Source: Wickerhamiella versatilis (lineage: Eukaryota). Taken from it: a stretch of DNA of 64,000 bases. Where the stretch lies: positions 372,001-436,000 of the forward strand of contig JAQOWU010000007.1 in NCBI GenBank assembly GCA_030867685.1. The letters are read 5' to 3'. This document shows, one piece after another, positions 27,103-40,015 of the stretch. The notes under the pieces are model-generated. The model made no database searches. It was not told the DNA's origin and saw only the letters and a list, made by a program, of their open reading frames with translations. The position numbers were made by a program, and so were the translations under genes. Each line of letters begins with the position of its first letter. Positions within the stretch are counted from its first letter, which is position 1.

Positions 27103-27951
27103 TCAATGTTCGGGAATCACCAGGGGGCCAAGCTGGTCCAAAGATTCTGATCTCACATTCGAATCGTAAGCTGAGAACTGTACGGTACTATCTCTGAATG
27201 CTTTCAGGCACTGAACAGTACCAGCGGTGCCAACAGAACGTACTTCCCTTACTTTTTCAAGATCTACTCGGAATGGGAAAATTTCCTGACGTTCCCCTGA
27301 ACGGTGCATAATCTCACCTTCTGGACCAATCGCTTGTGACATCCCAACTCCAAGCAGTCCGGCACCATTAACATCCACAAAGTAACATTGGTTTACGATA
27401 GCATTTGCCTGGGCTACAACAAGTTCTTGCTTACGGTCTAGAGTAGTCGTCATTAGCGGGTGAAGAATTATTTCGGCACCCATGAACGCCAGTTCCCTTG
27501 ATACCTCGGGTATCATAACGTCATAACATATCAATACCCCAAACCGGCCGATACCTGGTACATCGAAGGTCACAAACTTATCTCCAGGAGTGTATTTGTC
27601 CTCGTATGGAAGCCATGGAAATACTTTTCTATAGCGAGTTACGACAACACCGTCAGGACTTATCACGCTCAGCGTGTTGTAAATACATTCTCCAACTTTT
27701 TCCAGTAAGGTACCTGGAATCAACCAGACATTATTAGCTTTAGCAAGATTGCAGAAGACTTGTTCCGTTGGTCCTGGAAGTGATTCTGCTTTGTCGAAGT
27801 TTTCTCCAAAGCAACAAAGTTCACTGAAGACAATCATTTTAACCCACGGGTATTTTTGCTTGGTTTCTATGATAAGAAGCTTCATTTTTTCCAGGTTGTC
27901 ATACTCTGTCGCATCTAGCTGAACTGCAGCTATGCCGAATGATTTCCCCAT
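27103..27951 (-). CDS. Carbon-nitrogen hydrolase (nitrilase superfamily), bacterial type
   Basis: Catalytic triad contexts VFSEL, YRKVFPW, LICYD. Confidence 0.88.
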   Translation of the reverse strand: MGKSFGIAAVQLDATEYDNLEKMKLLIIETKQKYPWVKMIVFSELCCFGENFDKAESLPGPTEQVFCNLAKANNVWLIPGTLLEKVGECIYNTLSVISPDGVVVTRYRKVFPWLPYEDKYTPGDKFVTFDVPGIGRFGVLICYDVMIPEVSRELAFMGAEIILHPLMTTTLDRKQELVVAQANAIVNQCYFVDVNGAGLLGVGMSQAIGPEGEIMHRSGERQEIFPFRVDLEKVREVRSVGTAGTVQCLKAFRDSTVQFSAYDSNVRSESLDQLGPLVIPEH

Positions 27952-28108
27952 AGCACCCCCCAGCTAGCCTCTAGCTTTGTTTGACAAGCCAAAATGAGTA
28001 ACATTTTAATTACAAATCATAATATACATATATAGTCTTTCATCTTACAACGAAATCCATGATTGAATGGATCAGCTATAAATTGGATATCTCGATTCTA
28101 CTACTTAA

Positions 28109-29620
28109 TCATTTATGGACCACAGCCTCAATCAATTCAGATGAAATGATGTCCAATATTTCGGAATCAAAATCAACTTCCATATAAGTTGAAGGCAGAA
28201 GTTTACCATCGCGAGCAATAACATGTGCTTTGTAGTCTGGTGACTTTTCTTTCACGTACACATCTGTACCGTTGACCTTTGCATCAGGGCCCCAACTAGC
28301 GTTTTGGCCAACTTCAATAGACGACAGCGGGAACTCCAATTTATAACCCTCTGAAACGCTGATTTCACCTGCACTCATTGTACTAACAAACGAATACTCA
28401 TATTCCTCCGTGTGAAGAGCGTCACCATTAACATTAAGCCCTGAACCACCTGATACCGAGAACGCATTAACATCCTTCAATTTTCGCTGAGTTTGTACAT
28501 CGTGTAACTTTGTATGTTGCAACCACTCCACCCGCAACTTTTCTACCTTCTTAGTGGAGTTATTGGTAAAGGTCAGGTCAGCAGAAGCATTGAGATCACG
28601 CGTATTACTGACTATTTCAACACCGGGAAGCTGAAGCTTGAAAGGCTTTTCTGTTACTACAGCTGGATAGCTTAAACCTGTACCCTCAAGATTTGGATCT
28701 TCCCAGGTAAGCAGACTAGCGCTGATTACCCAGTCGCCGTCTGCTCCATTCACCACTATGTTCAAAGGAAGCGGACTTTTCCAAAGTGCAGGAAGGAACG
28801 GCGTAACATCAATAGCATAGTGCGGCTGGTTAAAGCTACGAATGGGCACAATAGGACTCCATAAATGAGGCTCAAAAGTGCCAGGGTTTACCGAAGGATA
28901 CGGGGTGAAGTCCCCTGCAGGCTCGCCATTAAGCAGTACAGACACAAATCGTGTTGGCGAATCACTCTGATACCAATTTTCCTCGCCCTTAATTCCCGAG
29001 ATAAAAATATTGATTACAGCGCGAACAGTTGACCGAGAAAGTTTAGGCACGGCGATTGGTGAATCTTTACTATCGCTAGAAAGAGCTTCAACTCTACTAG
29101 GTGCACCATCATAGAACGACTCTTCAATATTATTAGGTGAATAAAAATATTCTGCTGAGAGCTTGATGCTAATATCTCCCTCGAGTTGCTTTGTCGAGAC
29201 GCTATCAGATAGCACCTTGAGGCTCTGGGCATATGAGAAGAGGGGAGCAAATTCACTGACATCTGCCCTTGATTTCAAACATATAGGCTGGTCATCGGAA
29301 CTGGGTAAGAATAAACGCCAAACTTCGACATCGTCGAACGTTATGCGAGTAAGGCTGTTATCAGCGATCCCGGTACTGTTAAGTTCCAGACTAAGTGTGA
29401 CGTGCGTGAAATTGGCTTCTGGTAATTCAATTGCGACCGATATAGGCTCAGTGAGAGAACCAAAAGTTCCGTTTATCAATGTGTTTTCTGCCACGACCGG
29501 ACCATAGTTTGGAAGCGGGGCTGTTACATCGATCAGTTCATTAGCTGCAGATGTAACGTCAACATCCTTTATAGCGCTGAGACCCCAAAATGGCAAAAGC
29601 TGTTGAATTAGAGAGCGCAT
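28109..29620 (-). CDS. Divergent PNGase A family protein (peptide:N-glycanase A-like), probably secreted
   Basis: DDVEVWR, GEENWY, LWSPIVPIRSF, IDVTPFLP match PNGase A blocks; multiple N-glycosylation sequons. Confidence 0.7.
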   Translation of the reverse strand: MRSLIQQLLPFWGLSAIKDVDVTSAANELIDVTAPLPNYGPVVAENTLINGTFGSLTEPISVAIELPEANFTHVTLSLELNSTGIADNSLTRITFDDVEVWRLFLPSSDDQPICLKSRADVSEFAPLFSYAQSLKVLSDSVSTKQLEGDISIKLSAEYFYSPNNIEESFYDGAPSRVEALSSDSKDSPIAVPKLSRSTVRAVINIFISGIKGEENWYQSDSPTRFVSVLLNGEPAGDFTPYPSVNPGTFEPHLWSPIVPIRSFNQPHYAIDVTPFLPALWKSPLPLNIVVNGADGDWVISASLLTWEDPNLEGTGLSYPAVVTEKPFKLQLPGVEIVSNTRDLNASADLTFTNNSTKKVEKLRVEWLQHTKLHDVQTQRKLKDVNAFSVSGGSGLNVNGDALHTEEYEYSFVSTMSAGEISVSEGYKLEFPLSSIEVGQNASWGPDAKVNGTDVYVKEKSPDYKAHVIARDGKLLPSTYMEVDFDSEILDIISSELIEAVVHK

Positions 29621-29772
29621 AGCAAAAAAAAATTAGCAATAAACAAATCTATCTATTTGATATAAATACAATGAAAATTCTCCGCGGAATAACCCTAACA
29701 TCAACATGATGCTCTAGTCGTTGTATATATATGTAAAATGCGACAAACCAGGACTTGACTATAATCAACTCA

Positions 29773-29794
29773 CAGAATCAGAATCAGAATCAGA
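29773..29794 (+). repeat. Short (CAGAAT)n tandem repeat
   Basis: cagaatcagaatcagaatcaga. Confidence 0.7.
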
Positions 29795-30401
29795 GCCAGA
29801 TCACACACATTATACTATCCAGTATCTATAATAGAGAGATGCGCAGCCATGCCTCGAAATATCTACCACCCTGAAGGTCGAAGTGTGTTGGGAGTTCCCA
29901 TATTACCTAATAATTTAGGGATTCTCGTATTCGCTAAGGTGAAAAATGACAACTGAGTTATTATTTATTATTATGCATCGGCCTGAGTTTTTAGGTTTAA
30001 TAGTGGATCAAGCTATCTTGTAATAGTGATTTGAGCTAAGAAAGGTATCTGAAAACGTTTTCAGAGTTTATATACATAGACATGCTTCTCCTAAGGTAGA
30101 GTAATGCCAGAAGGCTATTTTTTTATTTTTGGATAGTAATCAACAGTTTAGTGCGTTCCATAGCAGTGCATGTGAGTTCCATGACTACCTGAAGCCGAAA
30201 TCCACTTCCCTCCTTGATCATATATGTCAAAATACTCTTTTTTTCGAGAGACAGATAAATATAACTTGGGTAATCGAAAAGTGGAAGAGCACAGCTAAAT
30301 TATCCGCACTAAAAAAAGTATTTAAGTATGATGCAATGTATTCATTGAAGACGTCATCTCCTTATCAAGTTATATGTTTTTGTTAGTCAGATAGGACAAC
30401 A

Positions 30402-32705
30402 ATGAGCGATAACAAGGCTGCCATTGCTGCACAAGAAAAGGGGCCTCCGCCTACTTATGCAGAGGCGACTCAGATACGACCCTTAAAGTTCTATCCTACT
30501 GATGGCTCTTTGTCTTACAAGGTAGCCACTACTGATACAGTATCGACTGACGAATGCATTGCTCATCTTAAGCTGATCAGCGTCTTCGCAGATCTCAGGG
30601 ACACTATTTCTAGTCGAGATGGAATTTTCGATTTGTGGGACTGCACTGCGTCCCAATCTGATGATGACTCCCGTAAGCGTGGCTTGGCTCTGCTTCGAGA
30701 GAAAAGATGGGCGGTGTACGTGACTCGGGCAGTTGATCGTTTCGAGTCATGGTTCAAAGGGAACGTATTGGAAAAAACTGTTGATGCAGGAGCTGAGGGA
30801 GTGACTGTTAAGCTGATTGAGAATTCGAAGATGTCGATGATAGATAAGCAGGTCGTGCAGCCCTGGACACCTGAGTCCTTGCCACCCGTAGACGTTCTTA
30901 TGGTGTGGCATGCGTATATGCTTAATCCTCGAGACTTTCTTGAGGATTCTATAAAATTCCAATGTTTGTGGTTTTGGTCAGCAGGTTTTCCATGGAAGGC
31001 AATTAATGAATGTATAAATGAAACATTGGATTATGTTGTTGCCGAAAAGGCTATAGGAAGGTTCGAGGCACAGTGCGGAAGAAAGTGGGTGAATGAAGCA
31101 GATCAAGACTTCAAAATCCTCAAATGCCCATGCTGTGATTCGATATTGAAAATACCATGGACAACGACCAAAGGTCCTGGTGATCTCACTCACCCATTTC
31201 AGGATGGACGCGGTTTCGCAGATACAGATTTGACGTATCACTGTGATTATTGCTCTTATGTGATTACTCGTGATGTACTACGGCTTGCGAAGTTTCGCAA
31301 AGACGTCATAAGGTTGTATAAGGAAGATATTGCCATGCCTGGGTCATTGCTTCCCCCAGACGGCATTCCAAAACCAACACCAAGTTCACCTGAGCACACC
31401 TATGTCAATCATCTAATTAAGAGGGGAATTTCCACGGATAACATGCTGATAGCAAGCGATTATCTCTCTTCACCCTCTAAAACTCTCGATGATGTACGAA
31501 AGCTGCTCGAGGAAATCAGTGCAGACCGCGGAATATTGGCTTACGTTGGAAAATATCGCCGTACCTCGCAAAAAGTAGCTCGTATTCGACGCATGTCCGT
31601 CCGCAGGGTCATGTCCCGATACTGGGACAACTCATCATTATTTTCGTTGGATCTGGTAGGTGCGGTGCTGCGCCAAGGTACGTTTGTGCGAAAGATGGAC
31701 GAAATAGATTGGCTGCATTCCCCCGCCCTTGAGAAAACCATGGAGCGATTAATTATGAAGTATCGTGTATTCCTCGAAATAATAGCCCAAAATGAGGGAA
31801 AAATGGCTGTACCAACTCTTGATGTCGATCTTGCGTGGCATACACATCAGCTATCTCCATACAGGTACTATGCTTTTTGTAAAAAACATACCGGAACACT
31901 AATTAACCACGACGATAAGGTCGAGGAGGGAAAGCTCTCTGATGGGTTCGAATGGACCAGTAAGCAGTATCAGAAACTCACTGGTGGACAATTATATAGT
32001 ACTTGTACCTGCTGGTATTGTGAGGCAGTCCGTGAATCTAATATATCTCCCATTTCTGCGAAATTGTTCTCATCCTCATCTTCAGCTTCTGCTCGCAGCA
32101 ATGCAATTTCTCTCCATTCAGAGTCTGAGAAGCATCAAGATAGTGACAAAATGGCACACATCTCTGCACACAACGCTATAGCACCTAAGGGATTGGCTGC
32201 AGGGACATCGGGAGAACAAGTTCGCGAGGCGCGGCTAAAACATCTTTATGAAAAGGCAAACCGCCGATTGCGCAAGCGGGGTATATCTACCAAGCCTTCT
32301 GGGAAAGGAAACGGAGAGAGAGGACCATACGATGGCTATTTTATGGCCTGGGGTATCCTTCCTCTGTACATGCCTTTTTCGGCGCCCTATATTGCAGACT
32401 GCGACATAAACAATTGCGATGGTATGTATCCAAGCAATCCAGCATGTGCCGATTTTTCTCCCGGGGCCATGGGAAATTGTGTTAGCGGTATGTGCGGAGG
32501 AAGAGTTGGTGCAGGGGGGTGTGGTAGTGGCGCATGCAGCGGTGGGACAGCTGGTGGCCAGTCAGGCAATTGCTCCTCGATGGGCGGATGTGGTGCGAGT
32601 GGTGGATGTGGAGGATTTGGTGGATGTGGTGGAATGGGTGGAGCATGTGGCGGAATTGGCGGTGGGTGCGGGGGTGGCGGAGGCGGATGTGGCGGTGGAT
32701 GCTAA
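30402..32705 (+). CDS. Glycine-rich-domain protein (GRDP/DUF1399-like) with Gly/Cys-rich tail
   Basis: LPPVDVLMVWHAYMLNP, VPTLDVDLAWHTHQL, HDDKV; C-terminal GGCG repeats. Confidence 0.85.
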   Translation: MSDNKAAIAAQEKGPPPTYAEATQIRPLKFYPTDGSLSYKVATTDTVSTDECIAHLKLISVFADLRDTISSRDGIFDLWDCTASQSDDDSRKRGLALLREKRWAVYVTRAVDRFESWFKGNVLEKTVDAGAEGVTVKLIENSKMSMIDKQVVQPWTPESLPPVDVLMVWHAYMLNPRDFLEDSIKFQCLWFWSAGFPWKAINECINETLDYVVAEKAIGRFEAQCGRKWVNEADQDFKILKCPCCDSILKIPWTTTKGPGDLTHPFQDGRGFADTDLTYHCDYCSYVITRDVLRLAKFRKDVIRLYKEDIAMPGSLLPPDGIPKPTPSSPEHTYVNHLIKRGISTDNMLIASDYLSSPSKTLDDVRKLLEEISADRGILAYVGKYRRTSQKVARIRRMSVRRVMSRYWDNSSLFSLDLVGAVLRQGTFVRKMDEIDWLHSPALEKTMERLIMKYRVFLEIIAQNEGKMAVPTLDVDLAWHTHQLSPYRYYAFCKKHTGTLINHDDKVEEGKLSDGFEWTSKQYQKLTGGQLYSTCTCWYCEAVRESNISPISAKLFSSSSSASARSNAISLHSESEKHQDSDKMAHISAHNAIAPKGLAAGTSGEQVREARLKHLYEKANRRLRKRGISTKPSGKGNGERGPYDGYFMAWGILPLYMPFSAPYIADCDINNCDGMYPSNPACADFSPGAMGNCVSGMCGGRVGAGGCGSGACSGGTAGGQSGNCSSMGGCGASGGCGGFGGCGGMGGACGGIGGGCGGGGGGCGGGC

Positions 32706-33248
32706 TTCACTGAAAATCGAAATAAAATTTAGATAGAATCAGTTTTTTTATTTTTTTCGATTAGACCAATGCTGTCGGTATCTAGTCGTATTATGCGAAA
32801 AGCAACCTCGTTTAGCGGCAGATAACGGGCTTCCTGTAAGTATGACAACAAGCGCTTGATTTTGTGTGAACTATTCTATACAATAACATCATATATATGA
32901 ACTTCTGTCACTCCAAATTTTTAAAAAAAAGGTGCGGGGTAAAAAAATGACAGGGTCAGGGTATGTATTACGCCCTGAAAAGCTTGACATTTCTTGCGCC
33001 GTGTAAATTCGTGTTTAGAAGGGGCGATATTCACTTTCTAGCTTGAGAGAGGAACTTATAAAAGGACGAAAAGGAATGTAATAGCCACAAGGTAAAATCA
33101 CGACGAGACCCGTAGTTATTTACCCTTAGTTACGATCAAATAAATGTCTCATCGTAGCGTTCAGCCTAACCCGATTAATAATCACAGTTTTAACTTTCAA
33201 CGGGGCAAACATTGTGACTAAATATTCTTCTTGCCACCAAAGGAGACT

Positions 33249-34907
33249 ATGGCTCCTACTACTACATTATTTCAGAGACCTGACTTCAGGGTCTTAGCGC
33301 TCCATGCCGCAAGAGAAGATCTTGTTGCCATAACCACGCATGGCGCGTTTTCTCGAGGCCGGTGGCTGCGACTCGGCATGGGCATCAACCGAGTTGCCGG
33401 ATCTGTCTTGTGCAAGGATGGTATTATAACGTGCCAGATGACACACGGTGAAATCTTATGCATAGACAGTAAACTGCGCGTAGTTGCGCGGGCTTCTGGT
33501 GCTCCACCCGGTAAGTATCCATTCCCACCAAGCACCAACCCTGATGGAAGATTTGCTGTACTGTCTCAGGGGCAAGAGGGTGTCGCAGTCTATCAAGTAG
33601 ATGGTCTACGTAAAATCAGATTGTTAAGTGGCGTAGAATTTGCTCTGTTGAATCGGCCTGGGTCTAAACCAGCAATAACGGTATCCAAAGGGATGGTGCA
33701 GGTAGCTGCTAACCAATGTGAATGGGACGTGGTCTCTGTATCTGGTGGAATTGAAACTGAGGGAGCAATAGTTAGGGGGAACACAAGTTTGACGCATGTT
33801 GCATTTGATGGTACTGTTACGGACATAGCACTGAAACCAGGAGAGCGATTACTTTCAAATGGGTGGATCTTGAATGGTACTGTTGTGAGGCATTGTCTTC
33901 ATGGAACCAAATATGATCTGGGTACCGCAGCCTTAGAGGCTACCCAGGTAGCCATAAACGAGAATAAGAACTTTTCTGAGGCTATTTTGTGCGACGTAAA
34001 TAATAAGTTGCTTCATGTATCTATCCCGGAATCGATCTGCAATGTTCTGCTAACTACTCGTGGACTTGAAGAAGTACATAATACTCTTCAAGTTCCTGTA
34101 CTTGCTGCCGTGTCGAATTGCCCCAGGCCCTCGAGGTTTCTTGGCTGTAAATATTTATTACTCTTCGTCAATAAAGGCAATACTTCAGCTTTTGAAGCTT
34201 CAACACCGTCTATCCTCAGTAAGGTTGATTTGGGACTTGAATCGGAAGAGACCATAGCTGTGGGTGATTGTGATAATCATCTTATGGTAGTCACACGAAA
34301 TGATATTCGTAAGTATCAATGGGGAACATTCCGCTTAGTGGATTCGATTGGAGTTGAAGATGTTATTGATGCCTGCGTAAGTGATATCTGCGTGATAGCA
34401 CGGCAAGGAGAGGTTATCACTTACAATCATGCACTTTCCATCCTGAATAGACGGTCTTGTCCTGTAGATACGGTTAGAATTACAGATTCTAATTCTCCGA
34501 TTTCTGCATCTTCAACTTGCAGCATAGCCTGCTATGATTCTGCTAATCTCAGCAATGTGACCAGTATATCGTCAAACATGTGGGTAACAGATCATTGTGA
34601 CCAAGGAAACATTATGGCAGTATGTTATGGGTTTGGCGCTTGTGACATATATTCTAATGATACCAAATCAGGTCGCTATGAGCATGAACCAATTCGATTG
34701 TTGCTCGGATCGCGACCACTTCGAATTATCGGAGCTCGGGGAGGAAAGTTCATAGTAGCTGGTGAGTCCATTTGGATTGTTGATAGCATGGGAGCCTCGA
34801 TGATTGAATCAGAGCATGAAATACTCGACGCAGCATTGGTAAATGAGAACTATATATATACCGTAGAGCATGACGGATACCTAAGGGTCCGGCGCATTGA
34901 AATATAG
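33249..34907 (+). CDS. Hypothetical beta-propeller-like protein (weak Mms1/DDB1/Rse1-like resemblance)
   Basis: Long beta-strand-rich ORF; NPDGRFAVL and EETIAVG...LMVVTRNDIR recall DDB1-family segments; first ATG at 33249. Confidence 0.4.
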   Translation: MAPTTTLFQRPDFRVLALHAAREDLVAITTHGAFSRGRWLRLGMGINRVAGSVLCKDGIITCQMTHGEILCIDSKLRVVARASGAPPGKYPFPPSTNPDGRFAVLSQGQEGVAVYQVDGLRKIRLLSGVEFALLNRPGSKPAITVSKGMVQVAANQCEWDVVSVSGGIETEGAIVRGNTSLTHVAFDGTVTDIALKPGERLLSNGWILNGTVVRHCLHGTKYDLGTAALEATQVAINENKNFSEAILCDVNNKLLHVSIPESICNVLLTTRGLEEVHNTLQVPVLAAVSNCPRPSRFLGCKYLLLFVNKGNTSAFEASTPSILSKVDLGLESEETIAVGDCDNHLMVVTRNDIRKYQWGTFRLVDSIGVEDVIDACVSDICVIARQGEVITYNHALSILNRRSCPVDTVRITDSNSPISASSTCSIACYDSANLSNVTSISSNMWVTDHCDQGNIMAVCYGFGACDIYSNDTKSGRYEHEPIRLLLGSRPLRIIGARGGKFIVAGESIWIVDSMGASMIESEHEILDAALVNENYIYTVEHDGYLRVRRIEI

Positions 34908-35387
34908 AGAGTCTATTTTTTTTAAAAAATTGAGCACGTAAAAGAATAAGAGGGTTTTGCAGTAGACTCATGCAATTATATTAGGAGAAGGCTTGGTGGT
35001 TTTCTGAGGCAACTCAATATTTTAAGCCACACAGTAATACAACCGAGGAAACCGATTTCTATGCGCATAACGACTTAGACATCTGTAAACCACTGATCTT
35101 TGCAGTATACTTCTATGGATAAGAAGGCCCCAACCCTGATTCTCTAGCACAACTGAACCGTAGAAAAACCAAAATCACTACTGTTATCTCATACTATTTT
35201 TTTTCGCCAAAATAATCCAGTTTCCATGTCTTATATGAACACAGAAGAGATAAAAGAGAGCAGTGTATGATCAAATGACGATTAATAATCTATTAGACCT
35301 AGCTAGATTATCATAGGTTAGAAAGACAAGATGGGCATTATACCCCGGCAAAAATAATAAATATGCATCCACCATGGACTTAAGAAG

Positions 35388-35960
35388 TCACAATACGGGA
35401 GATCCTACACAGAGGAGTAGAACAGCCGCTCTTATATGCATTCGATACTCCTCGGGAGAAGTCACGGTATCTCTGATACCCCGAGATACTATTACTAGGT
35501 TACTGGCCAAAATCTTCGGGGTTAATCCAACTTTAGCCCATCGCCGTGAGATATAAGTATTTTCTAGAAACCGCGTCAACATTTCTATGGTTGTTTCCCT
35601 CGCGATTTTTTCATATTTCTCACCAACAGTGGATAGTTCCTCAGCTAACTCTGTGCCAGTGAGGTCAGCCAGGGAAGTACTGAACGCCTTAATTAAACGA
35701 TCTTCTATTGAAATCTCGCGATCATGAAGACACGATTCGAAATTTTTCAGTCTTGGTGTCATTCCCCGTTCAGCAACTGCGCATAAGAGAGCTTCTTTAT
35801 TTGGAAAATGAGCATAAACCGTTTGGCGCGATACTCCAGCAGCTCGGGCTACGTCATCCATAGTTGTCTTCTTGTATCCAAAATTACTGAATGACTGCCA
35901 TGCCTTACTCACTATAACCTTTTGTAAAGGTGGCGCGTACTGGCCATCGTCTATTACCAT
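35388..35960 (-). CDS. TetR/AcrR-family transcriptional regulator (bacterial type)
   Basis: Intact HTH: FSNFGYKKTTMDDVARAAGVSRQTVYAHFPNKEALL; 190 aa. Confidence 0.92.
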   Translation of the reverse strand: MVIDDGQYAPPLQKVIVSKAWQSFSNFGYKKTTMDDVARAAGVSRQTVYAHFPNKEALLCAVAERGMTPRLKNFESCLHDREISIEDRLIKAFSTSLADLTGTELAEELSTVGEKYEKIARETTIEMLTRFLENTYISRRWAKVGLTPKILASNLVIVSRGIRDTVTSPEEYRMHIRAAVLLLCVGSPVL

Positions 35961-36177
35961 TTATGTGTTAGTCATACAAACAACAGAAACACACCTATAT
36001 TCGATGATCTCTGTAGTCATGTTGACAGCTCAACTCAATGGATTTCTTGCTTTCGACGGAATAATCTCATGTTGTACGTTGAATTCCTAATTCTCACTAT
36101 TTCTCTACAATATTTAGCACAACATAGTATCAGATAGCAATCTGAGTAATCAAACGTCTATTGGCTGACCCTCTACA

Positions 36178-37737
36178 ATGTCCATTGGTGTTCATCGTGA
36201 ACTGGAACTCACTGAATGCACTGTAGAAGGTGTTAATTCTCTATACGCTAGAGGAATTAAGTGCGAAGACCTAATATCAGCATTTCAAAAACGGGTTTCT
36301 AAGTACAATCCTCATTATAATGCCATAATAACTCCTAATCCCTCAGCGCTTGAAGATGCTCGTGAGATAGACCGTCTTCGACAGTCAGGTGAGCCCCTAG
36401 GTCCTTTGGCTGGTATTCCGGTGGTGATAAAGGACACGATGGATATGGTAAACTTGCCGTCGACTGCAGGTTGGCATTTTCTAAGCGCAAGAGCTGGTGG
36501 TGTGGACCTCATTCCGGAAAAGGACTCTCCTGTTGTCGCACGAATAAAGAAAGCAGGCTGTGTTATTCTCGGTAAGACAAATGTTCCAATTCTTTCAGCT
36601 GGCGGGAGTAACACTAACAACAGCTGGGCCGGCCCAACTTTGAATTCAGCAGCACCGGCCCGAATGCCAGGTGGGAGCTCTGCAGGTACTGCAACTGCAG
36701 TTGGAACAAGTATGGCTGTTGTAGGCTTGGCAGAAGAGACAGGTGGATCGATTCAAAATCCCGCAGCCGCACAAGGTCTAGTTGGCGTAAAGCCTACCTT
36801 CGGACTAGTACCCAATGCTGGTGTTGTTCCTCTTGGTGGTTCTACTCGTGACGTTGTTGGGCCAATTGCTCGAACCGTGCGCGATGCAGCGCTGGTGCTC
36901 GACGTTCTCGCTGGTTATACTTCCGAAGATCCGAAGACTGTTGCTGGGATCGGCAACCGCCCATTAGACGGCTATACGACGAATTTAAACCGATCATTTT
37001 TGAAAGGAAAGCGCTTAGGACTTTATGGTTTTGGATGGCGTAAACAGGAACTTTCAAAGGAATGCGCTACGTTATACGAACGAGCAAAGAAGGAAATAGA
37101 GCGATGTGGAGCTACACTGATAGATGACCCTTTTTTGAATACCAATTTTACCTCGATAGCTTGGACCTCCTCCAAAAGATCGTATTTTGATGCTCGGGGT
37201 ATGGAGTGTGCCGCTTACGATGTGGATCAGTATCTTCGCCGTCTGGGACCATCGGCAGCCATCAAAGATTTTAACAGTCTTTCAAAGATAACCGAGACTG
37301 AGGATCCTTTTGGTTCCGGTGGCGTGTTGGAATACTTAAAATATCTTCCCGAAACAGAAGTTTCTTTGAACGACTCTACGACTCCTCCACCCCTGAAGGA
37401 GTTCGTAAAAGCGAAAGAAGAATATATTAGGGTGATTAATGAGATCTTCTCTAACCATCATCTTGATGGTCTTGTATTTCCTCAGATGTGTGATGAGCCT
37501 CCACTTTTGAAGGCCGATAGCGACGCTATTATACCCCTCACGGTCAGTGAAATTAATATCGCAGGTCTACCAATCGTTACTGTCCCTGCTGGTTATTATG
37601 AATCTGGCTCACCATTCAACTTGGTATTTATTGGCAAGCATTGGTCAGAAGCAGAGCTTCTGGGTCTTGCCTATGACTACGAACAAGCAACACATCATCG
37701 CATAGCTCCAAGGCTAGAGGAGAGTCAGCTAGAGTAG
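36178..37737 (+). CDS. Amidase-signature family amidase, bacterial type
   Basis: GIPVVIKD (Lys), PGGSSAGTA, EETGGSIQNPA (Ser-cisSer-Lys triad), GVKPTFGLV. Confidence 0.92.
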   Translation: MSIGVHRELELTECTVEGVNSLYARGIKCEDLISAFQKRVSKYNPHYNAIITPNPSALEDAREIDRLRQSGEPLGPLAGIPVVIKDTMDMVNLPSTAGWHFLSARAGGVDLIPEKDSPVVARIKKAGCVILGKTNVPILSAGGSNTNNSWAGPTLNSAAPARMPGGSSAGTATAVGTSMAVVGLAEETGGSIQNPAAAQGLVGVKPTFGLVPNAGVVPLGGSTRDVVGPIARTVRDAALVLDVLAGYTSEDPKTVAGIGNRPLDGYTTNLNRSFLKGKRLGLYGFGWRKQELSKECATLYERAKKEIERCGATLIDDPFLNTNFTSIAWTSSKRSYFDARGMECAAYDVDQYLRRLGPSAAIKDFNSLSKITETEDPFGSGGVLEYLKYLPETEVSLNDSTTPPPLKEFVKAKEEYIRVINEIFSNHHLDGLVFPQMCDEPPLLKADSDAIIPLTVSEINIAGLPIVTVPAGYYESGSPFNLVFIGKHWSEAELLGLAYDYEQATHHRIAPRLEESQLE

Positions 37738-37822
37738 GAAGCGTAAACTCAGAGAAAGTACTAAATTAGAGTCTTAAGAATCAAATTTGTCTATATTTGA
37801 GGATCTTATATCCTGAATACGT

Positions 37823-38660
37823 TCAAAACGTAGCATGACCAAGTTCAACAGCGAAGCTAAGAGTGAGACAACTATACTTAATAATATGATCCAAAAGCTA
37901 GCTTATCCGCCGTATCATGTATAGTGTGTACATATATGGATTAGACACCTCAAAGGCACTATCGAAAACATGAGAGCTTGAGTAGCCTGTAATTTTGTTT
38001 CAGCTAGCGTAATCGCTACTTGCAATCTTCGGTAGCGCTGAATAGGTCCAGCCTATTGTACAGTATTCTATAATCTTCGGAATATACTCAGTAAGATTCT
38101 CGTCGGCATCATCAAGTTTCATAAAAAGCCACAGTATCTTTTCCTAGCTTAATGGATCCTACGCTATATCCTGTCATGTCCTGCTCAAACATTGCGACGA
38201 CTTGGATTCCTGAATCCCTATGATTCGCGGCAATATCTTGAGAATCTAAAACCGAATTCTTCAGCACCGGCTGCAGGTAGAACAAAAGGCATGAAAAGGT
38301 TGATAGAATCCTGATTTGAACCTATTAACACTACATCTTCTAGAGTGCTAGAACCCACGGAACGCGCTTTTCTGCTAAGACAATGCATAAGTTCATAGGT
38401 CGTATTTGTCTGCATCATTTTTTTCCGAATTGTGGTAAGTGAATAATTGATTCGAGATGCCCAAGGCCTATCACCATGTGATGTAATATCTATAAAGTCT
38501 ACACCGTTCCTTTAATTTGAGCATATCATCAAAATCAACTTCTTGGCGTTGTATTTTCCCATACTCAACTTTCCGAAGTCCTTTGGGAGTAAGTAAATGT
38601 TATGGAGGGATCTCCAGGCGCGCAGCCTAACTGGTAAAAATAGCAAAAACAATCTTTAAT
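37823..38660 (-). pseudogene. Degraded fungal leucine aminopeptidase 1 (M28 family)
   Basis: Hand translation across frames: NGVDFIDIT, VVLIGSNQDSINLFMPFVLPAAGA, EEFG, SQDI, AMFEQDMTGY, SSDYAS, LDHIIKYSCLTLSFAVELG; several stops and frameshifts plus internal deletions; 5' boundary approximate. Confidence 0.85.
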
Positions 38661-38812
38661 CTGATGAAGGGAAGCTATTACATAATTATATTACATTGAT
38701 AGATATCCTTTTACTTCTGCCCAGGATTGATAGTGTTTGGAATGAATGGTTTCATAGCACCAAAAAAGTAAAATTGGACATATTGTAGAGCTTCTGAAAT
38801 ATGTTTCAATAT

Positions 38813-40015
38813 CTAAGCTCCAGGTGCCGGTTGTGCGCCCGGTATGGATGTAGTAATGGCCTTGAGGTCGGAATCACTTGTGTATTTTACGGGTGCAAAG
38901 GCATATTGCTTGTTGTCAATATCAAAAACGAGGTAGAGCTGGCGAAGTATTGGATCACCAAGGATATTAAGTTCAAAAATAAACTCAGAAATAGAACGAC
39001 CCACGGCAAAGATATAAGTGCCTTGGTCTTCTTCAAGTATCAAGTCCTCAGCAGGTACGTTTACCTCAACACCAGATATTGTGAAGTTCAGTCCAGTTCT
39101 TCCAGTCAAGTCGGGCTTAGTCTGCGATGCATATACCTCATTATAGGAATCCCAGCTGAATCCATAATCTGAAGCCGCGCTATCAGCCAAGTCTTGCGGA
39201 AGGAGAATCTGAGGGGTACCTGTGTCCCAGATAGCTGAAAAACTATGGCCCTGGAACTCTATATCAACACCATAGTAGCTTTCAAGAATGCCAAACTCAC
39301 CAGAAGACCATGGAACGGTATAAAGGGGTCCCTTATATTTTGCTGAGTCGACGCCTCCAAGAATCAGCTCGGCATCTGTGGCATCTTCATTTGCCATGTA
39401 TAAGCTGAATGCATTCGCATTGATAGTACCTTGCTCTTGAAGACGCTGAACAAACGGGGTATACTTTGTAGGTGCTGACTCCGCGCTCTTGACAGAGATG
39501 CCGAAGATACCTCTGTTATCAGGAAATAAGTTATCAGACTGATTCAAATACGCAATTGGGTAGTTATCTACAGAAGCTCCGGCTAGCGTTACCGTCGCAT
39601 CAGCCCAAGAACCTGTGACTGTGTTAGATCCATCACCGTACGAATCAGTAAAATCATTATTCAACCACTTATATCCAGATGTAGCAGAATCAGGGTCAAA
39701 GAGATTAGAGCCCGAGGAGCCCGTGGCGAATGCCCAAGTATCACTGCTGCCGGTATCTAGGATTGCAGATATTTTCTGACCCGCAATCTCGTAGTCAACA
39801 AAGTAACGTTCTCCTGTGAAGTCCAATGAAGTTTCTGGGTCATTTCGCTTTCTTAAAGACCGTCCAGGATGAGCGATTCTTGACGAGTTCGTGAATCTGG
39901 GAGCTGTGGAGATTTTATGAGATACTGGGATTGTTAGCACGCCTGGAGCACCTCGCTCCGCGAGGGGCGCAGCTATAGAAATACTGATGACAGAGGCCAA
40001 ACTGCAAAACCACAT
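38813..40015 (-). CDS. Secreted A1 aspartic protease (SAP/yapsin-like)
   Basis: Signal peptide, KR propeptide site, LDTGSSD and WDTGT catalytic motifs, ILGD; ATG at 40015. Confidence 0.93.
   Translation of the reverse strand: MWFCSLASVISISIAAPLAERGAPGVLTIPVSHKISTAPRFTNSSRIAHPGRSLRKRNDPETSLDFTGERYFVDYEIAGQKISAILDTGSSDTWAFATGSSGSNLFDPDSATSGYKWLNNDFTDSYGDGSNTVTGSWADATVTLAGASVDNYPIAYLNQSDNLFPDNRGIFGISVKSAESAPTKYTPFVQRLQEQGTINANAFSLYMANEDATDAELILGGVDSAKYKGPLYTVPWSSGEFGILESYYGVDIEFQGHSFSAIWDTGTPQILLPQDLADSAASDYGFSWDSYNEVYASQTKPDLTGRTGLNFTISGVEVNVPAEDLILEEDQGTYIFAVGRSISEFIFELNILGDPILRQLYLVFDIDNKQYAFAPVKYTSDSDLKAITTSIPGAQPAPGA

What the first reader, a model, noticed from the sequence alone, without database searches (positions are those of the whole stretch)
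35388..37737. Intact bacterial TetR/amidase divergon in a eukaryote, with candidate operators
Seen: a full-length TetR with a canonical HTH is divergent from a bacterial-type amidase across 217 bp, the classic bacterial repressor/target layout. The spacer has two inverted repeats: GTTGA-cagc-TCAAC (36021-36034, containing TTGACA) and TCAGAT-agca-ATCTGA (36130-36145). Prokaryotic regulators are rarely kept after transfer to eukaryotes, yet this ORF is intact while nearby genes have decayed. Inference: a possible natural ligand-responsive TetR switch in yeast. Co-transfer is unproven and the palindromes are short.
Basis: partly seen in the sequence, partly recalled or inferred. Interest (0 to 1): 0.85.

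Follow-up and report, generated by a model that had tools for sequence, protein, structure and literature searches.

The report
Bacterial TetR regulator kept in yeast
A yeast-like fungus carries a bacterial-type TetR regulator gene next to a bacterial amidase gene; both are transcribed and the regulator is kept intact by selection, which hints at, but does not prove, a natural bacterial-style gene switch working inside a eukaryote.

Summary
The layout is real. A 190-aa TetR-family ORF (35388-35960, minus) and a 519-aa amidase-signature ORF (36178-37737, plus) diverge across 217 bp in a compact fungal genome.

Both genes are of bacterial descent and have the host's base composition. The amidase nests beside an Acidocella-containing bacterial clade at about 70% identity. 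The TetR has no relative above 40% outside yeasts.

Public RNA reads show both as separate, unspliced transcripts, one library being poly(A)-selected. Adapter-marked 5' ends lie 168-178 bp apart, each about 20-35 bp downstream of a TATA-like element.

The TetR is under purifying selection (dN/dS about 0.12). Its helix-turn-helix is 24 of 25 identical between two yeast lineages that are 66-68% identical overall.

The palindromes are no more frequent than in shuffled or other intergenic DNA. No TetR-amidase pair was found in 190 bacterial loci, so an inherited "divergon" is unsupported.

A functional TetR protein in yeast is well supported. Regulation of the amidase is plausible but untested. 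Interest 0.7.

The parts
35388..35960 (-). TetR-family regulator CDS, 190 aa, intronless
   Evidence: PF00440 E 2.9e-16. AlphaFold2 gives an all-helical model of 10 helices, pLDDT 85.4. Top Foldseek matches are TetR-family repressors. It keeps every invariant residue of its bacterial subfamily. No joints appear in the RNA reads.
35775..35927 (-). DNA-binding domain, residues 12-62, with the helix-turn-helix at residues 28-52
   Evidence: Helices 12-27, 34-41 and 45-51 in the model. Residues 28-52 are 24 of 25 identical to the second yeast's protein P0002, against 63% in the C-terminal domain.
35290..35976 (-). TetR mRNA, about 690 nt; 3' end near 35290, 5' ends at 35966-35976
   Evidence: Summed depth is 102-157 in the poly(A) run X24 and 10-49 in X21 and X22. 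38 molecules begin at 35290. Adapter-like loose ends sit at 35966, 35969, 35973 and 35976 (18, 7, 4 and 4 reads). The next bin, 35970-36136, has depth about 1 or 0.
35961..36177 (.). 217-bp divergent spacer holding both core promoters
   Evidence: Almost no RNA depth. No similarity to bacterial loci.
35996..36001 (.). TATA-like TATATT, 20-30 bp upstream of the TetR 5' ends
   Evidence: Pattern scan, with positions relative to the 5' ends. Its function is inferred.
36021..36034 (.).
   Evidence: Present. Repeats of this class occur at chance frequency.
36109..36116 (+). TATA-like AATATTTA, 28-35 bp upstream of the amidase 5' end
   Evidence: with the 5' end at 36144. Its function is inferred.
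36130..36145 (.). Inverted repeat TCAGAT-agca-ATCTGA, candidate operator 2; it lies between the TATA-like element and the amidase mRNA 5' end and overlaps two GATA cores
   Evidence: Present. The mRNA 5' end is at 36144 (3 adapter-marked reads). GATA cores are at 36128-36131 and 36133-36136. Repeats of this class occur at chance frequency.
36144..37800 (+). Amidase mRNA, about 1.66 kb
   Evidence: Summed depth is 16-40 (X24), 21-38 (X21) and 17-34 (X22). Depth is zero from 37807. The organism-B contig spans 36155-37800. No joints.
36178..37737 (+). Amidase-signature enzyme CDS, 519 aa, peptide-amidase-like
   Evidence: PF01425 E 1.6e-81. The closest solved chains are peptide amidases 5ac3 and 1m21, E 1.5e-56 and 3.1e-55. 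K85, S167 and S191 are invariant in 17 homologues.

Best explanation
Two genes of bacterial descent were fixed long ago in a yeast lineage and are now ordinary yeast genes. Each has the host's composition, its own TATA-like core promoter and its own unspliced mRNA.

The TetR gene still encodes a working TetR-family protein: a small all-helical homodimer with an intact helix-turn-helix and ligand-binding domain.

The most likely job, which is inferred and not shown, is as follows:
- The dimer (about 2 x 21 kDa by residue count) reaches the nucleus.
- It binds an operator in the 168-178 bp between the two transcription starts.
- It sterically hinders pre-initiation-complex assembly at the amidase promoter, and perhaps at its own.
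- It lets go when it binds a small molecule related to the amidase's amide substrate, so the peptide-amidase-like enzyme is made on demand.

The pair is probably not a bacterial divergon carried over intact. The juxtaposition either arose in the yeast lineage or came from an unsampled donor.

Shown: bacterial descent, integration, transcription, mRNA ends, purifying selection, fold.
Predicted only: the dimer.
Inferred: nuclear entry, DNA binding, operator identity, ligand, effect on the amidase.
For: Descent and integration:
- The two yeast amidases form a clade (SH-aLRT 99) with P0090 as sister (96). That clade lies inside a 29-row group (100) whose other 26 rows include three proteins named Acidocella by NCBI, plus L001 (113 rows; names).
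- All nearest Atlas clusters of the TetR are 100% Bacteria.
- GC3 is 0.377 for the TetR and 0.371 for the amidase, within the 0.35-0.47 of 32 other ORFs.
- Fungal genes flank the pair.

Expression:
- Raw RNA reads from 3 runs (2 samples, 2 studies) cover the TetR at summed depth 102-157 (poly(A) run X24) and 10-49 (X21, X22).
- They cover the amidase at 16-40. The spacer is at about 0-1 and the region after the amidase at 0.
- Adapter-marked 5' ends lie at 35966-35976 (33 reads) and 36144 (3 reads).
- Organism-B contigs stop at the same gene borders.

Selection:
- The RNA allele differs from the window at 21 CDS sites, 15 synonymous and 6 not. It reproduces exactly the six replacements of P0001.
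- dN/dS is 0.117, binomial p 5.5e-6.
- A second yeast keeps an intact 185-aa copy, P0002, 68% identical. HTH residues 28-52 are 24 of 25 identical.
- All subfamily-invariant residues are kept.

Fold:
- pLDDT 85.4, pTM 0.73. The Foldseek top hits are TetR repressors such as 3bhq, SmeT 2w53 and Rv0078 bound to DNA, 6c31.

Dimer:
- ipSAE is 0.57 against a best of 3 controls of 0.00. The runs agree in at least 97% of contacts and the partner's pLDDT is at least 79.
- That mark was reached by 20 of 30 proteins solved as pairs of one chain and 1 of 23 solved as single chains.
- The interface is residues 141-190. The pass may come from likeness to solved TetR dimers.

Plausibility of repression:
- Prokaryotic repressors bound near the TATA of yeast promoters repress transcription (passages read in PMC8421071).
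- In Streptomyces, TetR regulators less than 200 bp from a divergent neighbour mostly regulate it (abstract of PMC3511530).
- The amidase 5' end lies inside the 36130-36145 repeat, downstream of a TATA-like element.
- P0002 and P0060 report the same contig statistics (2 contigs, longest 76047), so the second yeast probably has both genes on one contig.
Against: - No binding, localisation or knockout data exist.
- The two palindromes are at chance frequency.
- A crude palindrome hunt in 77 upstream regions of bacterial relatives gave no shared operator, and the yeast arms occur as inverted repeats in 0 of 77.
- No TetR-amidase pairing was found in bacteria: 0 of 80 amidase loci, 0 of 30 further loci and 3 extended ones, and 1 of 80 TetR-relative loci. 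The detection HMM found 5 of 5 unrelated TetR genes in a control.
- Bacterial relatives of this TetR mostly neighbour short-chain dehydrogenases (13 of 54 upstream ORFs, 19 of 52 downstream) and aldo-keto reductases (6 of 54), not amidases.
- The closest non-yeast TetR is 38-40% identical, against about 70% for the amidase.
- The amidase is well expressed in all three RNA runs while the TetR mRNA is as abundant or more so. There is no sign of tight repression under those unknown conditions.
- The spacer is 217 bp, just over the 200-bp rule, which was derived in bacteria.
- The TetR 5' UTR is only 6-16 nt, which might limit translation from the first ATG.
Confidence: 0.4

Rival explanations
1. 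The TetR is a functional, selected protein in yeast, but the amidase is not its target. The two genes arrived separately, or were juxtaposed by rearrangement. The TetR regulates other loci or acts as a small-molecule-binding protein, while native yeast factors drive the amidase, for example nitrogen-responsive GATA factors.
For: - Expression and purifying selection hold as for the best explanation.
- No bacterial precedent exists for the pairing.
- The genomes with the closest amidases lack a full-length relative of this TetR. Best matches have E 9e-9 to 2e-6 over the HTH only, in 4 of 5 genomes.
- Bacterial relatives of the TetR pair with dehydrogenases and reductases.
- The only two GATA cores of the spacer sit at 36128-36136, just upstream of the amidase 5' end.
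- The amidase is expressed alongside abundant TetR mRNA.
Against: - Two independently acquired bacterial genes ending up head to head 217 bp apart is unlikely by chance, unless the region is a hot spot for foreign DNA.
- No dehydrogenase remnant lies beside the TetR.
- No other TetR-family ORF is in the window.
- The rest of the genome could not be searched because no genome is held.
Confidence: 0.3
2. A true bacterial TetR/amidase divergon was transferred as one fragment from an unsampled donor, and the regulatory link has been kept since.
For: - Adjacency and divergent orientation match the commonest TetR layout: 250 of 372 Streptomyces TetR regulators are divergent from a neighbour (abstract of PMC3511530).
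- Both genes are equally ameliorated.
- Both are present in a second yeast, probably on one contig.
- TetR regulators evolve fast, so 40% against 70% identity does not by itself exclude one donor.
Against: - The counts against pairing in bacteria apply here too.
- No plasmid among 72,556 holds both. There were 2 weak TetR hits and 19 amidase hits, in different records.
- In the two annotated or inspected contexts closest in layout, the amidase sits inside a same-strand cluster after a Liv-type ABC transporter. Shinella has a DeoR/GlpR regulator there, not a TetR.
- The spacer has no similarity to bacterial DNA and no above-chance operator.
Confidence: 0.2
3. The TetR ORF is a passenger with no function, merely not yet decayed, or the region is bacterial contamination or misassembly.
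For: Bacterial regulators are not expected to be useful in a eukaryote. The ORF is short (190 aa), so it could survive for a while by chance.
Against: - dN/dS is 0.117 with 15 synonymous changes.
- An intact copy at 68% identity exists in a second yeast, with a nearly invariant HTH.
- Transcripts are abundant in a poly(A)-selected library.
- Composition matches the host.
- Fungal genes lie on both sides in one 64-kb window.
- The identical protein was called on 8 contigs, the longest 873,793 bp.
- 19 of the 24 listed public runs hold at least half of the stretch's sampled words; 12 of the 20 runs that hold any of it may be the source of this DNA.
Confidence: 0.05

Closest known systems
Bacterial TetR-family repressors with a divergently transcribed target (TetR/tetA type; rule of Ahn, Cuthbertson & Nodwell 2012, PMC3511530, abstract read)
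   Same: - TetR_N helix-turn-helix and an all-helical two-domain fold.
- A predicted dimer through the last helices.
- Divergent orientation to an enzyme gene across a short spacer.
   Different: - The host is a eukaryote.
- Each gene has a TATA-like element and its own mRNA, recovered in a poly(A)-selected library.
- The spacer is 217 bp rather than under 200 bp.
- No above-chance operator is present.
- No bacterial relative of either gene shows the pairing.
Engineered TetR/LexA/LacI repression of yeast RNA polymerase II promoters (for example WTC846, PMC8421071, passages read)
   Same: - A prokaryotic repressor is expressed in yeast.
- The candidate site lies between the TATA element and the start site, the position where such repressors work in engineered promoters.
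   Different: - This one would be natural and evolved rather than built.
- Its operator, ligand and any effect are unknown.
Bacteria-to-yeast transfers of metabolic genes and operons
   Same: - Bacterial genes fixed in a budding-yeast-like genome.
- Ameliorated composition and transcription as eukaryotic mRNAs.
   Different: - Those cases, as I recall them, involve enzymes and transporters.
- Here a one-component DNA-binding regulator is retained, expressed and under purifying selection.
Peptide amidase (Pam) of the amidase-signature family (PDB 1m21/1m22, 5ac3)
   Same: - Full-length sequence match, E 1.5e-56 and 3.1e-55.
- K85, S167 and S191 are invariant.
   Different: - The match is distant, and scores are below every NCBIfam equivalog cut-off (best 275.7 against 534).
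- The substrate is unknown.

Membership tests
TetR family of transcriptional regulators (PF00440) | N-terminal TetR_N helix-turn-helix domain | tested here: met
   PF00440 E 2.9e-16, 59.4 bits against a cut-off of 24, residues 16-61 covering profile positions 1-46 of 47.
TetR family of transcriptional regulators (PF00440) | All-helical two-domain fold of about nine to ten helices | tested here: met
   AlphaFold2 gives 10 helices, pLDDT 85.4, pTM 0.73. 287 PDB chains match at E <= 0.001, and the listed top hits are TetR-family proteins, TM 0.45-0.72.
TetR family of transcriptional regulators (PF00440) | Homodimer through the C-terminal helices | tested here: inconclusive
   This is a prediction only. 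ipSAE is 0.57 against a best of 3 controls of 0.00. The mark was reached by 20 of 30 proteins solved as pairs of one chain and 1 of 23 solved as single chains. The runs agree in at least 97% of contacts and the partner's pLDDT is at least 79. The interface is residues 141-190. The pass may reflect likeness to solved TetR dimers.
TetR family of transcriptional regulators (PF00440) | Sequence-specific binding to a (pseudo)palindromic operator | not testable with these tools
   Candidate repeats exist, but at chance frequency. No operator could be derived from bacterial relatives.
TetR family of transcriptional regulators (PF00440) | Release from DNA on binding a small-molecule ligand | not testable with these tools
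   The C-terminal domain is conserved with its bacterial subfamily. The ligand is unknown.
Bacterial TetR/target divergon inherited as a unit | The same pair is adjacent in bacterial relatives of either gene | tested here: not met
   TetR-family ORFs were found in 0 of 80 amidase loci at +-5 kb, 0 of 30 further loci at +-1.5 kb and 0 of 3 extended loci. An amidase gene was found in 1 of 80 TetR-relative loci, and it was not adjacent. The HMM control found 5 of 5.
Bacterial TetR/target divergon inherited as a unit | Divergent neighbour less than 200 bp away (rule from the abstract of PMC3511530) | tested here: not met
   The orientation is divergent, but the spacer is 217 bp. The mRNA 5' ends are 168-178 bp apart. 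The rule was derived in Streptomyces.
Bacterial TetR/target divergon inherited as a unit | Same donor lineage for both genes | tested here: inconclusive
   The amidase lies next to an Acidocella-containing clade. The TetR's nearest relatives are unnamed environmental proteins at 38-40% identity. Genomes with the closest amidases lack it. 0 of 301 genomes of that family match at E <= 1e-12, but the tool warns that an empty answer shows nothing.
Amidase-signature family (PF01425) | Full-length amidase domain | tested here: met
   E 1.6e-81, residues 31-495 covering profile positions 1-445 of 445.
Amidase-signature family (PF01425) | Lys / cis-Ser / Ser catalytic triad (which residues form the triad is recalled) | tested here: met
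   K85, S167 (in GGSS) and S191 are invariant in an alignment of 17 homologues.
Bacterium-to-fungus horizontal transfer | The gene nests among bacterial sequences yet lies in a eukaryotic chromosome and is expressed there | tested here: met
   Trees, Atlas taxa, fungal neighbours, host-like GC3 and RNA reads including a poly(A)-selected run.

The most novel reading that the evidence does not exclude
A bacterial one-component TetR repressor has been domesticated by a eukaryote and works as a natural, ligand-gated switch on an RNA polymerase II promoter. It sits between the TATA element and the start site of the neighbouring, horizontally acquired amidase gene. In effect this would be a naturally evolved 'Tet system' in yeast.
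Probability: 0.3. Interest if true: 0.9.

Novelty: new variant of a known kind. Interest (0 to 1): 0.7.

Why it matters
Genes known to have moved from bacteria into fungi are, as far as I recall, almost all enzymes and transporters. DNA-binding regulators are assumed to be useless once separated from bacterial RNA polymerase and their operators.

Here a TetR-family regulator has stayed intact through full compositional amelioration. It is abundantly transcribed and shows dN/dS of about 0.12, with a nearly invariant recognition helix. That argues the protein does something in a eukaryotic cell.

If it regulates transcription, three things would follow:
- It would be a natural counterpart of the engineered Tet systems.
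- It would show that a bacterial allosteric repressor can be wired into chromatin-based regulation by evolution.
- It would give synthetic biology a yeast-adapted, orthogonal sensor with a ligand still to be found.

If it does something else, that function would itself be new for the family.

Seven full-text searches found no report of this. Supplementary gene lists of yeast HGT surveys could not be read and may already list it.

Tried and rejected
Genome-wide operator or paralogue searches were therefore impossible.
- The look-up of sequencing runs listed no RNA holder among the indexed runs. The RNA evidence comes only from the raw-read runs laid.
- Operator discovery: counting inverted repeats in 77 upstream regions of bacterial TetR relatives gave only GC-rich noise and two weak AT-containing candidates, in 3-4 loci each. 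The yeast arms were present in 0 of 77. The method is crude and the relatives are at most 40% identical.
- The exact palindromes are unique in the window. This says nothing, because any specific 12-base pattern is rare.
- Remnants of bacterial neighbour genes: tblastx of both flanks, the spacer and ORF 33231-34907 against 160 bacterial loci gave nothing below E 0.2.
- Plasmids as vectors: no PLSDB plasmid holds both genes.
- TetR in the amidase donor's family: 0 of 301 genomes at E <= 1e-12. At most 11 candidates per genome were scored, and the tool states that an empty answer without a positive genome shows nothing.
- Conserved bacterial context of the amidase: an L001-type ABC ATPase lies directly upstream in only 3 of 75 loci with enough flank, and an M20 hydrolase downstream in 1 of 70. 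No single ancestral context can be claimed.
- Naming the TetR donor: the exhaustive HMMER search, the profile search and the cluster look-up gave no organism names for the closest relatives.
- PMC5386878 looked promising (16 'TetR' hits), but all were 'tetranucleotide'.
- Contamination or misassembly was rejected (see the last rival explanation).
- Conservation of the spacer in the divergent strain, organism B or the second yeast could not be examined.
Full report
**What is there**

The window is a compact, intron-poor fungal genome. It encodes a Zn2Cys6 factor, two eukaryotic aspartyl proteases, isocitrate lyase and PrpD, among others.
- At 35388-35960 (minus) lies an open 190-codon frame. 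It matches Pfam TetR_N at E 2.9e-16.
- At 36178-37737 (plus) lies a 519-codon frame that matches the amidase-signature family over its full length, E 1.6e-81.
- They are divergent across 217 bp.

**Are the palindromes more than chance? No**
- Of 2000 Markov shuffles of the spacer, 87% contain at least one perfect inverted repeat with arms >=5 and loop 0-8. 65% contain two or more, and 41% one with arms >=6. The mean is 2.58 records against 4 observed.
- The other 14,854 intergenic bases of the window carry 3.17 such repeats per 217 bp, 0.95 of them with arms >=6. The spacer has 4 and 1.
- Each exact palindrome is unique in the window, but that is true of any 12-base pattern.

**Descent of the amidase**
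- Outside yeasts, the best matches are about 70% identical bacterial proteins, several named Acidocella by NCBI.
- I built a 113-row tree from the window, P0060, the 80 genome loci and P0061-P0091. The two yeast proteins pair (SH-aLRT 99) and join the long-branched P0090 (96).
- That clade sits in a 29-row group (100) whose other 26 rows include the Acidocella-named proteins and L001.
- K85, S167 and S191 are invariant in 17 homologues. That these three form the catalytic triad is recalled.
- The nearest solved structures are peptide amidases, 5ac3 and 1m21, at E 1.5e-56 and 3.1e-55.

**Descent of the TetR**
- An exhaustive HMMER scan of 1.84 billion representatives gave P0002 (68%, the second yeast). 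The next hit was only 38% identical (P0179, E 2.2e-31). 142 hits were below 1e-10.
- A profile search added P0335 at 40%.
- The nearest Atlas clusters are 100% bacterial.
- The yeast proteins keep every invariant residue of this subfamily, in both the HTH and the C-terminal domain.
- I built a 105-row tree using only hits of 160-235 aa; longer multi-domain hits were left out. The yeast clade (100) joins P0179 (88) and then P0180, P0181, P0182 and P0220 (95). All of these have an amino-acid make-up typical of low-GC genomes. Their organisms are unknown.

**Is the pair a bacterial unit? I found no support**
- None of the 80 bacterial amidase loci (+-5 kb) holds a TetR-family ORF. tblastn at E <= 10 gave six short hits, all with E above 3. 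My HMM gave 0 of 5713 ORFs at E <= 1e-3 and one at 0.013.
- The same holds for 30 loci from 32 of 301 genomes of L001's family (+-1.5 kb; four repeat earlier genomes) and for three loci extended to 14-15 kb.
- The HMM found 5 of 5 unrelated TetR genes in a control.
- Conversely, only 1 of 80 metagenomic loci of TetR relatives holds any amidase-signature gene. That is L129, at 36% identity, about 1.6 kb away.
- I also looked at the longest ORFs beside those TetR genes. I gave 54 of 66 upstream ORFs and 52 of 57 downstream ORFs of >=120 aa to Pfam, dropping short ones and near-duplicates. They are mostly short-chain dehydrogenases (13 of 54 and 19 of 52) and aldo-keto reductases (6 of 54).
- The five genomes with the closest amidases I could reach have only HTH-level matches to the TetR.
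- No plasmid holds both genes.
- In L001 and in a Shinella plasmid, the amidase follows a Liv-type ABC transporter on the same strand. The regulator there is DeoR/GlpR. That context is itself not general: it holds in 3 of 75 loci.
- Still, adjacency of two foreign genes in yeast is hard to get by chance, so co-transfer from an unsampled donor remains possible.

**Integration and age**
- GC3 is 0.377 for the TetR and 0.371 for the amidase, inside the 0.35-0.47 range of 32 other ORFs. The bacterial relatives' loci have 58-73% GC.
- The identical TetR protein was called on 8 contigs, up to 873,793 bp long.
- 19 of the 24 listed public runs hold at least half of the stretch's words, though 12 of the 20 runs that hold any of it may be the source itself.
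- Contamination is excluded.

**Expression**

I laid three raw-read RNA runs carrying the species label of the best holders, plus contigs of a run of 'organism B'. X24 is poly(A)-selected. X21 and X22 are one sample.

| Region | X24 | X21 | X22 |
|---|---|---|---|
| TetR bins | 102-157 | 10-49 | 10-41 |
| Spacer bin 35970-36136 | 1.1 | 0 | 0 |
| Amidase bins | 16-40 | 21-38 | 17-34 |
| After 37807 | about 0 | about 0 | about 0 |

- The left neighbour reaches at most about 7 and the protease end stays below 1.
- No splice joints were seen.
- Loose read ends carry one adapter-like consensus. I recall it as the template-switching adapter of full-length cDNA kits; this is recall and was not tested.
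- Those ends lie at 35966, 35969, 35973 and 35976 (18, 7, 4 and 4 reads) and at 36144 (3 reads).
- The TetR mRNA therefore starts 6-16 nt before its ATG, and the amidase mRNA 34 nt before its own. The two starts are 168-178 bp apart.
- 38 molecules begin at 35290, which I take as the TetR 3' end.
- TATA-like elements lie 20-35 bp upstream of each start.
- The 36130-36145 repeat lies between the amidase TATA-like element and its start. It overlaps the only two GATA cores of the spacer.
- Organism-B contigs cover 35067-35955 and 36155-37800 and skip the spacer, as transcripts would. The tool only guesses that this run is RNA.

**Selection**
- The RNA reads come from a lineage a few percent diverged from the window: 21 of 573 TetR coding positions (3.7%) differ, and most reads are 95-99% alike.
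- In the TetR CDS the listed fixed differences number 21, of which 15 are synonymous and 6 are not.
- They reproduce exactly the six replacements of P0001, none of them within HTH residues 28-52.
- With 136 synonymous and 434 non-synonymous sites, dN/dS is 0.117 (p 5.5e-6). The table is truncated, so synonymous changes may be undercounted and the ratio may be lower.
- The indels seen in organism B all lie in the 3' UTR.
- Against the second yeast, HTH residues 28-52 are 24 of 25 identical, the C-terminal domain is 63% identical and the whole protein 66-68%.
- For the amidase, only the first 107 codons could be scored: 9 synonymous changes and 3 not.

**Structure**
- AlphaFold2 gives ten helices, pLDDT 85.4.
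- Foldseek's best chains are TetR repressors, including a DNA-bound one.
- A two-copy model passes its controls: 0.57 against 0.00. The mark was reached by 20 of 30 solved homodimers and 1 of 23 solved single chains. Contact agreement is at least 97% and pLDDT at least 79.
- The canonical interface, residues 141-190, is used. This may simply reflect likeness to solved dimers.

**Reading**
- A functional TetR-family protein in a yeast is well supported, at about 0.85.
- That it is a DNA-binding regulator is suggested by the near-invariant recognition helix.
- The amidase is the obvious candidate target because of proximity. The position of the second repeat also fits what is known from engineered yeast promoters (PMC8421071, passages read) and from the bacterial genome-context rule (PMC3511530, abstract).
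- Nothing here tests that link, and the amidase is not visibly repressed in the three runs.
- I put the regulatory link at about 0.4, a different target or function at about 0.3, and intact co-transfer of a bacterial divergon at about 0.2.

**Literature**

Seven full-text searches found no report of a TetR-family gene transferred to a yeast or fungus. Supplementary tables of yeast HGT surveys were closed and may list it.

Noticed in passing
window 27103-32705: Just upstream lie three more hydrolase-type genes: a carbon-nitrogen hydrolase (27103-27951, minus), a PNGase A-like amidase (28109-29620, minus) and a GRDP-like protein (30402-32705, plus). The neighbourhood may be a nitrogen- or amide-scavenging region. 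Their origin, fungal or foreign, was not examined.
   Followed up: no
window 33231-34907 (+): This 558-codon ORF beside the TetR has no Pfam match and only low RNA depth, at most about 7. Its listed TTG start comes from the bacterial code, so the real start is probably a later ATG.
   Followed up: partly
proteins P0090, P0179-P0182, P0220: P0090 is 62% identical and long-branched, and is sister to the two yeast amidases. P0179-P0182 and P0220 form a clade with the yeast TetRs and have a low-GC-type amino-acid make-up, unlike the GC-rich bacterial relatives. They may come from further eukaryotes or from low-GC bacteria. Their contigs could not be fetched.
   Followed up: partly
window 34300-39300, runs X21, X22, X24: RNA runs filed under the same species label as the best DNA holders differ from the window by fixed substitutions at a few percent of positions (3.7% in the TetR CDS), and match protein P0001 rather than the window's own protein. 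The label therefore covers at least two diverged lineages.
   Followed up: partly
window 35961-35976: The TetR mRNA has a very short 5' leader of 6-16 nt. The next in-frame ATG is codon 34, which would remove helix 1. Which start codon is used was not tested.
   Followed up: no
window 36128-36136: Two GATA cores in opposite orientation (TATC, GATA) sit inside or next to the 36130-36145 repeat. These could be sites for native nitrogen-regulating GATA factors rather than a TetR operator.
   Followed up: no
window 38757-38807: The organism-B contig skips 49 bases here, with ends CA..TT. This lies in the 3' region of the aspartyl protease gene. The ends are not intron-like, so it is probably an indel between lineages.
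   Followed up: no
L001 and L199 (Shinella plasmid NZ_CP132309.1): In two distant alphaproteobacteria, the amidase sits in the same cluster: a Liv-type ABC transporter, the amidase, an M20/Zn hydrolase and two choline-kinase-like phosphotransferases. This hints at a conserved catabolic pathway whose substrate might also be the yeast enzyme's.
   Followed up: partly
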